Of a DNA stretch of 64,000 nucleotides, positions 53,601-59,600 are shown piece after piece. The DNA lies in the NCBI RefSeq assembly GCF_026571515.1, contig NW_026863691.1, positions 310,001 through 374,000 on the forward strand. The letters are read 5' to 3'. Position numbers: made by a program. Source of the DNA: Ruditapes philippinarum. Its lineage: Eukaryota. The number at the start of each line of letters is the position of its first letter. Position 1 is the first letter of the stretch.

Positions 53601-56600
53601 TTGGAGATTGTCTTGTCCGCGCAGTATCTTTTTGAACCGCTGAAAGAAATTTAAAACTATTTGTAATTTCTAGGTCAAATATTTAGTATTTAGAGTTACA
53701 CAAGGCACAAGTTGAAAATTGCGACTTTTTTTACAAAATCAAAGGCAATAACTCTACAAATACTGAATTAATCCACACACGAAACACAAGTGCACAACTT
53801 CACATGCTGATCAACATTCCTGTTAAATTTGTGGACACTAGCTGAAGCACTTGTGACATGTGACACAACATAGGAACACACACATGCAAATACCCACGGA
53901 CAAGGGAAAATATCACCCCCTCAATAATGAGGGCATAAACATGGTCGTGACCCCAATACGGCTCGAAGGGGCCACATTATTTTTCAGTAATAAGACGTTT
54001 GCATTTGTTATATGTATTCTATAGAAATTCACTAACTTCGTTCGAAACCTTGAGAATATTCGTCACAATAATATTATATTAAAAGCAAATAAAAATAATC
54101 GATTTTGACGGTTTATTTGACTTATAAGTTACATTTTACTAAATAAATCCAAGAATGGAGTTTAACTTAATCTTAAGTATGTGCCACTAAAGAGTTAATA
54201 TGCAAAGTAGATGTTTTCCATGATACACGAAAGCTGATGTTGAAAAACTATTGATTTAGAAAAGCAGAGTACTGATCTTAAAACGAAAATTTATACTGTA
54301 TTAAAAGTTTGACGTGACGACTCAATCCTTTTGGTCTAAATATCTGATGACATTTTCAATTTCAGAACACTCTTCATTTGTCAAGTAGTCGACCCATATG
54401 CTTGTCATTTCTTCAATTGGTTCTCCTTTCTCTTCTGAAGTGAAACCTTCAAAGAAATCGTGGTTTTTCTTGTCATCTGTTTGACCAACTGCCACCAGAA
54501 AGATGGATTCTTCCTTCTCTGAAATAAATCCATCGTTATCAGTGTCTAGGATGCTGTTGAAGAACTCTTCACCTACCTGCATCCTGTTAACAAATCCATG
54601 CCGGTCATGCATGAAGGCATTAGCTTGAGTCGTAACAAAGTCGTCAGGTGTAATTTCATTTCCATTCCAAAGAAGTATAGTTGTCCACCATTTGTTAAAT
54701 TGCTCCTCTACGGCGTCCTTTTCCTCTTCAATGAGTTCATGAAGATGGATGAATTTGTCACTGTTGATACAGAAAATATACAGACAAATGAAAAAGAAAA
54801 ATTATCATTACTTTTAACAGACATAAAATTACCATCTCTGTGACGAAACTTCCAAGAAGTCATCTTTTATAGCAAGTTTATCCGCTGTTCGACAGTTAAA
54901 TCTGTCTAATTTCAAGTCAAATAAGAATATTGTGTGTAGAAAATGGTACAAATAGTTTTGAAATATTACTGCCGTCAATGGAGGTCTCAGTTAAGCCGAA
55001 ACTGTAATTGTTAAGTTATGTATTTATTCTTGGTAAAGCTATTAAGATATAAAGATATGTTGTAATCTAGTAACTGTGTACAGATTGTCTTGCACGATAT
55101 TTTCGTGCATCAACAAGGCGTTTCAAATCACTCGAAGTAATTGCATCGATTCGTTCACATTTATATTTTCCCCATCATATGCCCTCACCCCTACAATTTG
55201 ATTGCGTACACTTGTATCTTATCAAGTAAACCTTCAGTTTTTTTTTAAAGAAAAGAAGCTCATTTTGATGGAACTTTATTTTCAGTAATATCTAACAGGT
55301 GATGCTTCAAGTTCAAGTATTCAAGTATTTTGGAATTATTTTCATGTTTTATGTTTGAATTTATTACTGTAATAGTCGGTTTAATGATAGCAATGCAATT
55401 GACCAATACTAATTATGTCTCGCTGTTTATTATGCTTAATAGTTTTTAAAAAGAATAAATTTTAAAAAGAACAAATAATTTATTTTCGTTTGAGCAAACG
55501 AATTAGAAAATGATAGTAATTGAATTCTTTTAGCTTTTTTCTGTAGAATTTCGTTAAACAACTTGTCTCGCTGATCGAAACTATCCAGATATAAAATTTT
55601 GGATATCAAAATGAACTTTAAAATAGCATAGAGCCTGTAAGAGTGTGAATGTTGCCCTTAATCTTAACTATTGTACCTAAATACATATAGAATAATATGT
55701 TCCCGGAACAAGTTATTACATTACTGTACTAATGAAGGATTTTAACAACTAGGTAATGATTTCGTGCGTACGCCACACGCTGATAAGGAAATATAGACCT
55801 TTTTACACTACGATTTTTCCGTAGTAACGGATATTGCATTTCGCACATGCGCATATAGATATTTTTGATTTTTTTTTTTAAACAAAAGTATAAAAAAACA
55901 ACACAAAAACTACAGATGAAATGAAATAAAGACGATATACCTACCTTGTCTGCTTTAGATCATCAAGGGCGACTACTCCGTCATCATTTGCATCGAAACA
56001 TTTTATCCATGCATCCCACTTCGAATATAGACAATCACTGACAAGTACTTCCTAAAGAGTTATATAACATTGATATAAGAATCTGTACACAATGCATCAT
56101 ATTTTGCACAAAAACATGCAGAATCAGTTTCAACAAATTTGATTTAGATCTGGATCAATAACTTCTTGCAAAATTTAAGATCATTTACTTTCTCCGTTTA
56201 TTTAGAATTATCATTTAGATTGTACAAAATGACCAAAAATAGCCGACAGGCGTTAAAAGATTGTTCAACCCTAATCGGGCTATAGCTAAGGAACACACAG
56301 GTTGTAAATTTTCAGTTTAATTAGTATATTTCTTAATTTTCTTTTGCGTAATTTCCTGGTTGATTTATAATTCGGACTTGAGCTCTTTTAAAACAAAGTT
56401 AAATACAACACTTTTGTCTTGTTCTTGATGAAAAGAGCTTACCGTTTGATCATCTCTGCGTATCCTTCCAGATGATACCCATACCAAAGCTGCAACAGTT
56501 ATTAGGTAGTTTTTTAAAACAATCAATTTCCTCGTGAAACATAAATATAATACAGCACACTATAGCTACAACATTACATAGTAAGTGAGTGTTTACTTCG

Positions 56601-59600
56601 TTTGCTCGTATTGCTTTATGTGAATATAAGTTGAGAAAAGGAAATCATTTTATCTTTTGAGACACCTAAACTATCAATAGCCCGGGTACATCGTGGGTTT
56701 TCTCGTTAGTTCTCGTAATTTACATTATTTATTCGATTTGACAATATTATCCATACAGTTTGTAAAGAGTTAGTTGCTTCTGTTCACCAAATGAATTCTT
56801 AAATATGAGTTTTTCGGCGTTTTCAGTCAGCGTTTGCGGATTGGGTTTGGGGATTGTACATCTGATGAAGAAACTACGATGTAAACCCAGCATCAATTTG
56901 CTAACACTAACCTAAAATGACATTATGTATCCAAATAATAATAAAAAACGTATGTAACCGCCACGTTCCCAGATGATAGCCTCAACCCTCCTCCTCATAC
57001 GAACAATTAGGCATCTAATACGATTTTGAGGTAAATTTTGCCATTCTTTGTGAGAGTTTGTTCCAGTTGTTGCAGGTTCGTACCATTGCCAAAATAAAAT
57101 TTAAAATTTCAGTAGTCATCATGTCAAAATTGAGGCAAAATGCCGGGTGTGCTTTTCTTATTTCCAGGTGTATATGATTCCGTATATTTGATTCACACTT
57201 CTTCAAGTATGCAATAAATAGCAATAATTTTGAGAGAAAAAACCCAACATCATTGCTAAAATTCCAGCAAAATGTAGCAATACTGTTAAATAATTACTTT
57301 TTCAATGATCATGGCAATTCCTGAGAAGTGATTCATCCTGTTAACACCAATGTTGTAAAAGGCTAACTTGTTGACATGCAATTGAAGAATTTTGTATGCA
57401 TAAAGATTATTTTTTCTAATGGAAAGTGCAAGTTACCGTCCAAGCCCCCCAGCACCGGCTTTAGCAGTATTCAAAATTTAAACAGGAAAAGAGGGTTATT
57501 TATTTATTGATCACCTATTTGCCAGAGGTTTTCTAAGAAATTACTTTATTATTAATTAATATTATTATTATTATCTTTTATTAGTATAATTATAATTATT
57601 GTCGATGATATAATTATCTATATATTTATTATGATTATTATTATAATTATTATTATTATTATAGAACCGGCAAAGGCCGTCCATATGGCAAATACGCCGA
57701 AAATAATAGGGACGGCATATATAATTACTATGGCAGTGAAAGAGTTAATTTTAGCCTATTCATATAATAAAACAATTATTGTTAAGTGAGTTATTGAATA
57801 TTATACAATTATTGACTAGTGAGCTATTGAATATGATGCGATATTCACCGGCAGATGACATATTGACCGAGGCGATAGCCGAGGTCAATATGACTTTCTG
57901 CCGGTGAATATCACATCATATTTAATGGCTCACTAGTCAATAATTGTTTTATTATATGAATAGGCTAAGAAATAAAAAAAATCACAAAAAGTAAAACCTT
58001 ATATACATGTACAAATTTTGCCTTGTTCAAGCGCGGGAAAAAAAGGCGCACGTGTTAGGCGTGCAACGACTTCGCGAACGCTGCGCATACAAAAGTAATT
58101 CAAGTTTATACTCAACATTGCGGTGTAGCCTTTAAGTAAAATGGTAATGTATTGATATTTTAATCGAGAAATATGCCATAAAGAACAAAAAGCAACAATT
58201 ATTTTTTAAGTAACACGCGTATTTAACAGTCTACGGTGTATGATCATAGAATATGAGTCTCAATCTATTTTTAGACTGGGAAAATCCAATTCAGCCAGTG
58301 AATATGATACTACACCCAGTAAATATGATTTTATAAAAAGTTCTGTTGACTACTCTTTGGACCAATGAGATTGCAGATATATTTAGATCATATAATAAGA
58401 TGTGATATTCACCGGCAGAAAATCATACTGACCTCGGCTATCGCCTCGATTATTTAAGATATACTATTGTACACAATTATTCTGCTTTAATTAGTCTTTC
58501 TTCATATTGTTATCTTATTAATAATTGTTTTTTGTATTTATTTATTTATTTATAAAGAAACTATTTCATGATAAAATAAATTGTTATTAAAGTGTAAAAA
58601 CAAATTGCTAGTTTCCCCATATCACATTTATCACTTTTTGATAAAAACTTTTTTGTGCTGAAACGTATTTCAAAATGTAACAAAATGGAAAGTGAGAGTG
58701 TTTGTATATCTAGTTATCTCTGTTGCCTTAAATGGTTTAAATGAAGATGAAGAGGTAATGAAATACTTACCAAGTATCGAACACAGTCCAATCCAAATAT
58801 TAGCCATGTCTGTAAGTGTTGATCTGTCAATTTCACCAGACGTGAGACTCGCTATATATGTTTGCAAACTGTTCGTTAATTAACACCTGAATTTCCGCCC
58901 TACTTCGTGTTCTGATTGCGAGGTCATTTTGTTTCTGTTTTAATTAGTTTTAATTGATACACGTTTCCTTAATCAAAATACATATATATTTTAATTAGGA
59001 CAACGTTTTTTCGCAAAAGTAAAATAAAACAGTTTATCGTATGGAAAAGAGAAGAAAATTTTAGTTAGAAATATAAGTTCACGTACAGTAAAATAATGAA
59101 TATGACTGAAAGAAAATTTTACATTCTAACAGTTTCATGCAGGGTCACCAAATTAAGATAATTCAGTTATATCTCTTTATAGAAATAATTAACATGCACC
59201 ATTTTGTACATGTATAATTTGTTCTATGAATATTCAAACAATATCAATTTCGTTTCTAGTTTTAATAACCATTGAAATTGTGTCATTTATTTCAAGAGTA
59301 TTAAATTTATTCAAGTAGATGTTGTATTTAATGTTTGTATCGCAGTTGTAAAGGGTTCTGGGACATTAAATACCGAGAAGTAGCTACTACCGGGTGTTTA
59401 GAAGTTCATTCTATCGAACAGATTCAATCAAACATTTTTAGTCTGTTTGTATCGCAGTCGTTTTAATGCTGTGTTTTTCTTGTCCTTTGGACATTTAGTG
59501 CCGAGAAATAGCTACAACCGCGTGTTATTGAAGTTCATTCTATCGAACATATTCGATCTAACATTTTTAGTTTTCGTAGGAGCTTTTCTCCTTCGGTGAG

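What the first reader, a model, noticed from the sequence alone, without database searches (positions are those of the whole stretch)
54322..58807. Secreted, convertase-processed SCP-like calcium-binding protein
Seen: two small extra 5' exons add a hydrophobic signal peptide and RIRR (R-X-R-R furin consensus) ahead of an SCP-type fold. EF1 (DANDDGVVALDD) and EF3 (DTDNDGFISEKE) look functional; EF2 and EF4 are degenerate. The domain is very acidic with three Cys. Established: SCP, calexcitin and aequorin-family proteins are cytosolic. Inference: an extracellular neofunctionalised SCP (shell fluid, mucus or haemolymph calcium or ligand carrier) made by exon gain. This is the best candidate for undescribed biology here.
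Basis: partly seen in the sequence, partly recalled or inferred. Interest (0 to 1): 0.66.

Follow-up and report, generated by a model that had tools for sequence, protein, structure and literature searches.

The report
Clam SCP-like protein with signal peptide
A Manila clam gene encodes a calcium-binding protein of a normally intracellular muscle and mantle family that carries an added export signal, so it is probably secreted; the gene is already in the public annotation, but this export signal seems not to have been discussed in print.

Summary
On the minus strand, four GT-AG exons (58807-58771, 56489-56443, 56051-55945, 54760-54322) sum to 630 nt. Their translations occur, in order and at 100% identity, in RefSeq XP_060563633.1, 'sarcoplasmic calcium-binding protein-like [Ruditapes philippinarum]', 209 aa. 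The gene model is therefore already public.

Exons 3 and 4 are colinear with the solved pearl-oyster Pf-SCP, 9L5M. All side-chain calcium ligands of its two sites are kept. Exons 1 and 2 add about 30 residues ahead of the old start position: a 14-residue hydrophobic core, then SSG, then RIRR.

Six further RefSeq SCP-like models in Ruditapes and Mercenaria also carry signal-like N-termini. This protein lies outside their clade and nearer the canonical group, so its signal was probably gained separately.

Secretion is predicted, not shown. Convertase processing is weakly supported: RIRR abuts the likely signal-peptidase site and occurs in 1 of 17 relatives. Nine literature searches found no paper linking a signal peptide to an SCP-type protein. 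Searches were run exon by exon and the joined step was left out. No structure model was obtained.

The parts
58771..58807 (-). Exon 1, coding part: ATG plus 12 codons and 1 base (MANIWIGLCSIL). Start of the signal peptide. Donor gtaagt.
56443..56489 (-). Exon 2 (47 nt): rest of the hydrophobic core, SSG, RIRR, DDQT. Acceptor ttgcag, donor gtaagc.
56455..56466 (-). Codons for R21-I22-R23-R24 (R-X-R-R motif).
55945..56051 (-). Exon 3 (107 nt): start of the SCP domain, with helix A and EF1. In-frame TAG directly upstream.
55959..55994 (-). EF1 calcium loop DANDDGVVALDD (P0041 48-59). Ligand positions D48, N50, D52 and D59 match Pf-SCP D16, N18, D20 and D27.
54322..54760 (-). Exon 4 (439 nt including TGA): remaining 145 residues of the SCP domain.
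54511..54546 (-). EF3 calcium loop DTDNDGFISEKE (P0041 136-147). Ligand positions D136, D138, D140 and E147 match Pf-SCP D106, N108, D110 and E117.
56490..58770 (-). Intron 1 (2281 nt). Holds nested inverted repeats at 57751-58448.
56052..56442 (-). Intron 2 (391 nt).
54761..55944 (-). Intron 3 (1184 nt). Its position appears shared with relatives: ORF fragments P0005, P0014, P0017 and P0029 diverge from full-length relatives at the same alignment column.
54112..54117 (-). AATAAA, 205 nt after the stop: likely poly(A) signal (motif recalled).
58853..58858 (-). TATATA, 51 nt before the ATG: possible TATA box. Weak evidence in a 68% A+T sequence.

Best explanation
This is a real four-exon gene of the Manila clam, already modelled in RefSeq as XP_060563633.1. 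It encodes a divergent paralogue of the bivalve-type sarcoplasmic calcium-binding protein (SCP, the Pf-SCP type).

The SCP domain is complete and keeps both calcium sites of that type (EF1 and EF3).

Ahead of the position of the family's ancestral initiator Met lie about 30 added residues, 28 of them encoded by two mini-exons. They form a cleavable ER signal peptide: n-region MAN, h-region IWIGLCSILALVWV, c-region SSG.

Inferred course: the protein is translocated into the ER and cleaved after G20. It has no retention motif, no membrane segment and no N-glycosylation sequon, so it travels through secretory vesicles and is released as a very acidic (pI about 4.2), calcium-loaded protein of about 22 kDa.

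Most likely role, inferred by analogy with Pf-SCP: a calcium carrier or donor in the secretory pathway or the extrapallial fluid or haemolymph that gives up calcium to carbonate. Calcium buffering is unlikely, because EF-hand sites would be saturated outside the cell.

The RIRR cluster is read as the charged flank just after the cleavage site. Trimming by a convertase is possible but would remove only four residues.

Shown: the exon model, family membership, ligand conservation and the N-terminal features. Inferred: translocation, the cleavage site, secretion and the role.
For: - Model identity: all four exon translations are found at 100%, in order, in the 209-aa RefSeq record.
- It is the only strong-donor splice path in 6 kb.
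- Family: exon 4 against 9l5m_A gives E 1.4e-10, query 2-136 on chain 37-171. Exon 3 against 9l5m_A gives E 0.0017, query 6-34 on chain 5-33. The family profile gives 9l5m 1.7e-57, Nereis SCP 1.2e-20 and calexcitin 2.3e-12.
- Ligands: the Pf-SCP ligands listed in the paper are all matched by side chains of the same kind.
- Extension: the conserved KW is at residue 39, against 7-9 in 9 of 9 canonical relatives.
- Signal features: the longest uncharged run is 17 residues and the best 9-residue hydropathy is 2.61. S18 and G20 sit at -3 and -1 (rule recalled).
- Precedent: six other RefSeq SCP-like models in Ruditapes and Mercenaria have KW at 36-46 behind hydrophobic N-termini.
- Old start kept inside the protein: in the KW register, canonical M-A-N-D-Y-L reads K/Q-A-S/N... 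in those six and L-V-S-D-C-L here.
- Pf-SCP releases calcium to carbonate and is tied to shell formation (abstract and Introduction of PMC12542302).
Against: - No transcript, proteomic or localisation data could be consulted, and a RefSeq model may rest partly on prediction.
- No transcript-derived protein for this gene turned up apart from that model. The only clusters at or above 50% identity hold P0041 and short ORF fragments.
- No trained signal-peptide predictor was available.
- The n-region has no basic residue, and three Arg follow the hydrophobic core. That could instead favour a reverse signal-anchor.
- There is no close orthologue. The best non-self hit is 36-37% identical, so conservation of the N-terminus cannot be tested.
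- Pf-SCP itself is intracellular in mantle epithelium.
- No structure model was obtained.
Confidence: 0.6

Rival explanations
1. Membrane-tethered cytosolic SCP. The N-terminal hydrophobic stretch is an uncleaved reverse signal-anchor: N-terminus in the lumen, RIRR as the cytosolic positive flank. The SCP domain would then be held on the cytosolic face of ER or vesicle membranes.
For: There is no positive charge before the hydrophobic core and three Arg directly after it. By the positive-inside rule (recalled) this favours a cytosolic C-terminal side. All characterised SCPs, including Pf-SCP, are intracellular.
Against: The core is 14 hydrophobic residues, or 17 uncharged. That is short for a membrane span and typical of a cleaved signal. 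Small residues sit at -3 and -1 before RIRR. D25, D26 and E29 cancel the Arg charge within 9 residues. Six paralogous models have classical signal-like N-termini.
Confidence: 0.12
2. The 5' end is mis-modelled, or the locus is a decaying copy. The two mini-exons are not used, and either another unseen first exon supplies the start or no full protein is made.
For: Shuffled sequence yields a compatible two-exon path 0.7 times on average. No independent transcript-derived protein was found. The protein is an outlier: its domain scores 136.6 and 94.5 bits against the two group profiles, where true members score 152-250 against their own group. The possible TATA box is weak evidence in A+T-rich DNA.
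Against: An independent public annotation gives the same model residue for residue. There are 0 one-exon alternatives in 6 kb. Exons 3 and 4 keep 181 codons open with all calcium ligands intact. The one available path happens to encode a signal-like peptide of the same length class as in six paralogues. The ATG context reads acagacATGg (Kozak rule recalled).
Confidence: 0.13
3. A secreted proprotein whose RIRR site is cut by a furin-type convertase, giving a mature N-terminus DDQTEV, with this processing mattering for function.
For: R-X-R-R is present once, against 0.014 expected from composition. Three of the protein's six Arg lie in it. It follows a signal-like peptide, so a Golgi convertase could meet it.
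Against: The motif starts at the residue after the predicted signal-peptidase site, so there is no propeptide to speak of. It is absent from the other 16 relatives compared, including all six signal-bearing ones. Acidic residues at P1' and P2' and the lack of any orthologue leave it untested. No cleavage predictor was available.
Confidence: 0.15

Closest known systems
Pf-SCP of Pinctada fucata (PDB 9L5M; PMC12542302)
   Same: The domain is colinear from the first helix to near the C-terminus. It has the same two-site layout, with all side-chain ligands matched. It is an acidic bivalve protein. Its intron-free comparison covers chain residues 5-33 and 37-171.
   Different: Pf-SCP starts at the domain and is found within mantle epithelial cells. 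This protein has about 30 extra N-terminal residues with signal features. The water-bridging Ser of EF1 is Ala here. Identity is low: exon 4 scores 44.9 bits.
Canonical venerid SCP-like proteins, e.g. P0002 (XP_045169146.2, Mercenaria) and P0031 (R. philippinarum)
   Same: These are the best non-self matches: 36% identity and E 5.1e-19 for P0002. The profile built from them gives the higher score, 136.6 bits. They share the N-terminal register ending in KW.
   Different: They begin M-A-N-D-Y/F-L with KW at residue 9 and have no hydrophobic N-terminus. In P0002, EF3 position 1 is Gly.
Signal-bearing SCP-like RefSeq models of venerid clams: P0020, P0023, P0032, P0063 (R. philippinarum); P0021, P0062 (Mercenaria)
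   Same: The same architecture: a hydrophobic N-terminus, about 30 extra residues, then the SCP domain with both loops intact. The old start position is retained inside the protein.
   Different: Four of them form a clade with 100% bootstrap that excludes this protein, although the backbone is unresolved at 2-12% support. Their profile scores this protein 42 bits lower than the canonical profile does. Identity is 24-27%. None has RX[KR]R, and their pI is 4.4-5.2 against 4.2 here.
Extracellular EF-hand proteins of mollusc shell formation (Huang et al. 2007, seen only as a cited title; EF-hand shell matrix proteins, PMC13425148 passages)
   Same: Secreted EF-hand proteins are an accepted part of the shell toolkit. 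EF-hand domains were found in the shell proteomes of all seven lophotrochozoan species examined.
   Different: Nothing I could read says these are of the SCP type. No sequence comparison was possible, because the 2007 paper is not in the library and supplements are closed.
CREC family (reticulocalbin, calumenin), recalled from memory
   Same: EF-hand proteins with a signal peptide that act in the secretory pathway.
   Different: From recall, they have six EF-hands and often a C-terminal retention motif. None appears among the best 60 PDB matches of the family profile. No homology is claimed.

Membership tests
Sarcoplasmic calcium-binding protein (SCP) family, bivalve type | Single globular domain of about 175-185 residues, alignable end to end with a solved SCP | tested here: met
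   Exon 3 and exon 4 align colinearly to 9l5m_A residues 5-33 and 37-171. The family profile gives 9l5m 1.7e-57 and Nereis SCP 1.2e-20.
Sarcoplasmic calcium-binding protein (SCP) family, bivalve type | Calcium ligands at the two active loops (EF1, EF3), with the EF2 and EF4 equivalents degenerate | tested here: met
   D48, N50, D52, D59 and D136, D138, D140, E147 match the ligands listed for Pf-SCP. This is sequence evidence only.
Sarcoplasmic calcium-binding protein (SCP) family, bivalve type | Cytosolic protein that starts at the domain and has no targeting sequence | tested here: not met
   KW anchor at residue 39 against 7-9 in 9 of 9 canonical relatives, with a hydrophobic N-terminus.
Sarcoplasmic calcium-binding protein (SCP) family, bivalve type | Measured calcium binding | not testable with these tools
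   No biochemical data.
Pfam EF-hand models | Score above the gathering cut-off | tested here: not met
   Single exons score 10.6-17.7 bits against cut-offs of 25-30. The joined protein was not scanned.
Cleavable ER signal peptide | Short n-region, hydrophobic core of about 7-15 residues, small residues at -3 and -1 (rules recalled) | tested here: met
   MAN / IWIGLCSILALVWV / SSG. Hydropathy peak 2.61.
Cleavable ER signal peptide | Positive call by a trained predictor, or an observed mature N-terminus | not testable with these tools
Proprotein-convertase substrate | R-X-[KR]-R motif (recalled consensus) exposed in the secretory pathway | tested here: met
   RIRR at residues 21-24. Expected 0.014 by composition.
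Proprotein-convertase substrate | Motif conserved among relatives | tested here: not met
   Present in 1 of 17 sequences, none of the six signal-bearing paralogues.
Proprotein-convertase substrate | A propeptide between signal cleavage and the site; observed cleavage | tested here: inconclusive
   The motif begins directly after the predicted cleavage site, so the propeptide is at most four residues long. Cleavage itself is not testable here.
Venerid signal-bearing SCP-like clade | Groups with the clade in a tree and by profile score | tested here: not met
   It falls outside the clade that has 100% support, with an unresolved backbone. It scores 94.5 bits to the clade profile against 136.6 to the canonical one, where clade members score 196-250.

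The most novel reading that the evidence does not exclude
Venerid clams have moved the cytosolic SCP fold into the secretory pathway at least twice. Each time, 5' coding sequence was added upstream of the old initiator codon, which survives inside the protein as K/Q in one lineage and L in this gene. The secreted, calcium-saturated SCPs would act as extracellular or vesicular calcium donors that hand calcium to carbonate during shell mineralisation.
Probability: 0.3. Interest if true: 0.55.

Novelty: new variant of a known kind. Interest (0 to 1): 0.38.

Why it matters
SCPs are treated as intracellular calcium buffers. Pf-SCP has recently been tied to calcium delivery for shell formation while remaining inside mantle cells (PMC12542302). 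A set of SCP paralogues with export signals would give that proposal a route out of the cell. It would also be a clean example of a cytosolic fold relocated by 5' exon gain.

The practical weight is modest. The gene is already annotated. Secreted EF-hand proteins are a known ingredient of shell matrices. Nothing here shows that the protein leaves the cell.

Tried and rejected
- Paralogues in the window: tblastn of each exon peptide found only self-hits at significant E-values.
- Exonised repeat: blastn of exons 1-3 with flanks against the window gave only self-hits, others E 0.009 or worse.
- Alternative starts: 0 one-exon alternatives and 1 two-exon path.
- Word-indexed protein search with exon 4 alone found only the window's own ORF fragment.
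- The same search with profile A1 returned mostly unnamed non-mollusc EF-hand proteins and added nothing on distribution.
I did not resend it.
- NJ tree: the backbone is unresolved at 2-12% support, so one gain versus two cannot be settled by the tree. The profile-score comparison was used instead.
There is no model, no fold search and no cavity analysis.
- Rfam and tRNA scans of 53000-60500 found nothing.
- Plus-strand ORFs in the region are 81 aa or shorter and were not pursued.
- A stretch in intron 1 that recalled a Tc1/mariner transposase tail gave 0 Pfam matches.
- The literature search 'EFCBP' returned unrelated vertebrate papers.
- Photoprotein or coelenterazine-binding kinship: Renilla CBP matches exon 4 at only E 0.026 and the family profile at 2.5e-10, far below the SCPs. 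It is a superfamily relation, not membership.
- The joined four-exon sequence was neither built nor searched. The public record P0041 was used only for local alignment, composition and local profile scoring.
- The two N runs in the window were left alone.

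
Full report
WHAT IS THERE

On the minus strand of 54322-58807 lie four exons with canonical GT-AG borders: 58807-58771, 56489-56443, 56051-55945 and 54760-54322. They measure 37 + 47 + 107 + 439 = 630 nt.

An in-frame TAG sits directly upstream of exon 3, and exon 3 contains no Met. Translation must therefore begin in an upstream exon.

I scanned the 6 kb upstream of exon 3 with GTRAG donors. There was no single first exon that could join exon 3 in phase. Shuffled sequence gives 0.7 such paths on average (sd 1.4), so splice compatibility alone is not beyond chance.

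An AATAAA lies 205 nt after the stop, and a TATATA 51 nt before the ATG. The latter is weak evidence in DNA of about 32% G+C.

No paralogue lies elsewhere in the window. Exons 1-3 are not part of a repeat within it.

INDEPENDENT CONFIRMATION OF THE MODEL

The window's own ORF fragment P0001 shares its 90% cluster with P0041. P0041 is XP_060563633.1, 'sarcoplasmic calcium-binding protein-like [Ruditapes philippinarum]', 209 aa.

Each of the four exon translations is found in P0041 at 100% identity and in order: residues 1-12, 14-28, 29-63 and 65-209. The two split codons read A13 and S64 as in the record.

I could not see what evidence that annotation rests on. Apart from it, no transcript-derived protein for this gene appeared.

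HOW THE SEARCHES WERE RUN

The public record P0041 served only for local alignment, composition and local profile scoring. The two N runs in the window were left alone.

FAMILY

- Exon 4 (145 aa) matches the solved Pinctada fucata SCP, 9l5m_A, at E 1.4e-10 over query 2-136 and chain 37-171.
- Exon 3 (35 aa) matches the same chain at E 0.0017 over query 6-34 and chain 5-33. The two exons are therefore colinear with one SCP domain.
- A profile of exon 4 plus 15 relatives gives 9l5m 1.7e-57, Nereis SCP (1q80/2scp) 1.2e-20, calexcitin 2.3e-12, Renilla coelenterazine-binding protein 2.5e-10, then photoproteins and juvenile-hormone diol kinases.
- Pfam EF-hand models match single exons only below their cut-offs.
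- The exhaustive representative search found 28 proteins at E up to 0.001. The best non-self hits are P0002 (Mercenaria, 36%) and P0003 (37%). There is no close orthologue in that library.

CALCIUM SITES

The Pf-SCP paper (PMC12542302; I read the abstract, the Introduction and section 2.1) lists these ligands:
- First site: D16, N18, D20, K22 (backbone), S24 (through water) and D27.
- Second site: D106, N108, D110, Q112 (backbone), E114 and E117.

Through the alignments, allowing for a three-residue numbering offset of the deposited chain (my inference), these correspond in P0041 to:
- EF1: D48, N50, D52, V54, A56 and D59.
- EF3: D136, D138, D140, F142, S144 and E147.

All side-chain ligands are kept, and the water-bridging Ser is Ala. 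The EF2 and EF4 equivalents are degenerate in all 17 aligned sequences.

THE N-TERMINUS

The conserved KW of the first helix is at residue 39 in P0041. It is at residues 7-9 in 9 of 9 canonical relatives.

The added part reads n-region MAN, a 14-residue hydrophobic core (17 uncharged residues), SSG, then RIRRDDQT. Hydropathy peaks at 2.61.

Small residues at -3 and -1 (S18, G20) fit signal-peptidase cleavage before R21. That rule is recalled, and no trained predictor was at hand.

The protein has no N-glycosylation sequon. It ends LDQKD, which is not a KDEL-type motif (motif recalled).

After the signal it has 46 acidic and 17 basic residues, pI 4.23, and Cys at 35, 46 and 195. It is the most acidic of the 17 sequences compared.

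NOT A SINGLETON

Six further RefSeq 'SCP-like' models have hydrophobic N-termini and KW at residues 36-46:
- R. philippinarum: P0020, P0023, P0032, P0063.
- Mercenaria mercenaria: P0021, P0062.

All six keep both loops.

I anchored the sequences on KW. The canonical start M-A-N-D-Y/F-L reads K-A-S/N-x-x-L in 4 of the 6, Q-A-S-S-Y-L in 2 of the 6, and L-V-S-D-C-L in P0041. The position of the old initiator is therefore retained inside the protein, and the extension lies upstream of it.

In P0041 the exon 2/3 junction lies two codons before that position. I could not compare gene structures, because no clam genome collection was available.

Exon 1 itself begins M-A-N, as do 5 of the 9 canonical proteins. 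I take that as a possible coincidence.

ONE GAIN OR TWO

- In a neighbour-joining tree (179 columns, 200 bootstraps), four of the signal-bearing models form a clade with 100% support. P0041 falls outside it, but the backbone has only 2-12% support.
- The P0041 domain scores 136.6 bits against a profile of eight canonical proteins and 94.5 bits against a profile of the six signal-bearing ones.
- In leave-one-out controls, all 14 members score 152-250 bits with their own group and 100-139 with the other.

P0041 is thus a divergent outlier that sits nearer the canonical group. This favours a separate gain of its signal but does not prove it.

RIRR

The motif occurs in 1 of 17 sequences, against 0.014 expected from composition. 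It holds three of the protein's six Arg, so it is not a chance feature of composition.

However, it begins at the first residue after the likely signal cleavage. A convertase would trim at most four residues. None of the six signal-bearing paralogues has such a motif.

The same cluster could also be read as the positive flank of a reverse signal-anchor. I rate that reading lower because the hydrophobic core is short, and because D25, D26 and E29 offset the charge.

MECHANISM PROPOSED

Shown: the gene model, SCP membership, intact calcium ligands and a signal-like extension.

Inferred:
- ER translocation, cleavage after G20, and passage through secretory vesicles.
- Release as an acidic, calcium-saturated protein of about 22 kDa.
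- Pf-SCP gives up calcium to carbonate and seeds calcium carbonate in vitro (abstract). By analogy, I propose a role as a calcium donor or carrier at or on the way to the mineralising front, or in haemolymph.

This last step is the weakest.

LITERATURE

I ran nine searches.

The three searches that combined SCP with 'signal peptide' returned 3, 4 and 1 papers. I read passages of all five distinct papers: PMC13190495, PMC8933548, PMC4391921, PMC9189711 and PMC4099483. None ties a signal peptide to an SCP-type protein.

Other passages seen:
- An SCP is higher in Mercenaria haemolymph than in extrapallial fluid, in a haemocyte-containing proteome (PMC8902148).
- An SCP transcript is strongly down-regulated in Manila clam haemocytes after Vibrio challenge (PMC4234419).
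- An SCP is differentially expressed in the mantle of the venerid Chamelea gallina (PMC9100110).
- An SCP homologue is listed in a tick saliva immunoproteome (PMC4099483).
- EF-hand domains were found in the shell proteomes of all seven lophotrochozoans examined (PMC13425148).
[quoted passage not shown] 2007) was seen only as a cited title.

Supplementary tables were closed. Those of PMC13190495 (signal-peptide calls for 327 shell proteins) and PMC8902148 may bear on the claim.

NOT DONE

- There is no structure model. Fold comparison and cavity analysis are therefore open.
- No signal-peptide or convertase-site predictor was available.
- No transcript or proteome data were available.
- No clam genomes were available for gene-structure comparison.

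VERDICT

The gene is a public but, as far as my searches reach, undiscussed signal-bearing variant of the SCP family, and one of at least seven such models in venerid clams. Convertase processing is doubtful.

Interest is moderate. The finding is plausible and testable with existing data, but it is not a new kind of system.

Noticed in passing
window 57751-58448 (inside intron 1): Nested inverted repeats with arms of 54-60 nt, 87-92% complementary. They look like one or two miniature inverted-repeat elements inserted in the intron.
   Followed up: partly
window 56927-57100, minus strand (inside intron 1): A 58-codon open stretch that recalled the C-terminal tail of a Tc1/mariner-type transposase (likeness from memory). 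Pfam gave 0 matches at E up to 10, so the likeness is unsupported.
   Followed up: yes
window 6011-12921, plus strand: Three long ORFs with Pfam matches: zinc knuckle and reverse transcriptase (the latter just under its cut-off), a weak Dam-like methyltransferase match, and a tyrosine recombinase (Phage_integrase). This combination recalls DIRS-like retrotransposons (recalled).
   Followed up: partly
window 13959-15077, plus strand: A 372-codon ORF with PAN/apple domains (E 4.8e-15). It may be a single-exon gene or a large exon.
   Followed up: no
window 43388-43783, minus strand: A 131-codon ORF with a sub-threshold match to the MIEAP (mitochondria-eating protein) family, 21.5 bits against a cut-off of 27.
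   Followed up: no
protein P0042 (unnamed source), matching window about 54322-54410: A diverged copy of the 3' end of exon 4. It has one residue difference, and its reading frame continues past the position of the stop codon. It could be an allele, a paralogue or a related species. Its origin was not traced.
   Followed up: no
proteins P0020 and P0032: Two signal-bearing SCP-like models of R. philippinarum with consecutive accession numbers, each on a contig of the same length, 135,908 nt. They are probably tandem duplicates and pair with 96% bootstrap.
   Followed up: partly
window 22612-22829 and 42533-42671: Two runs of N (218 and 139 bases).
   Followed up: no
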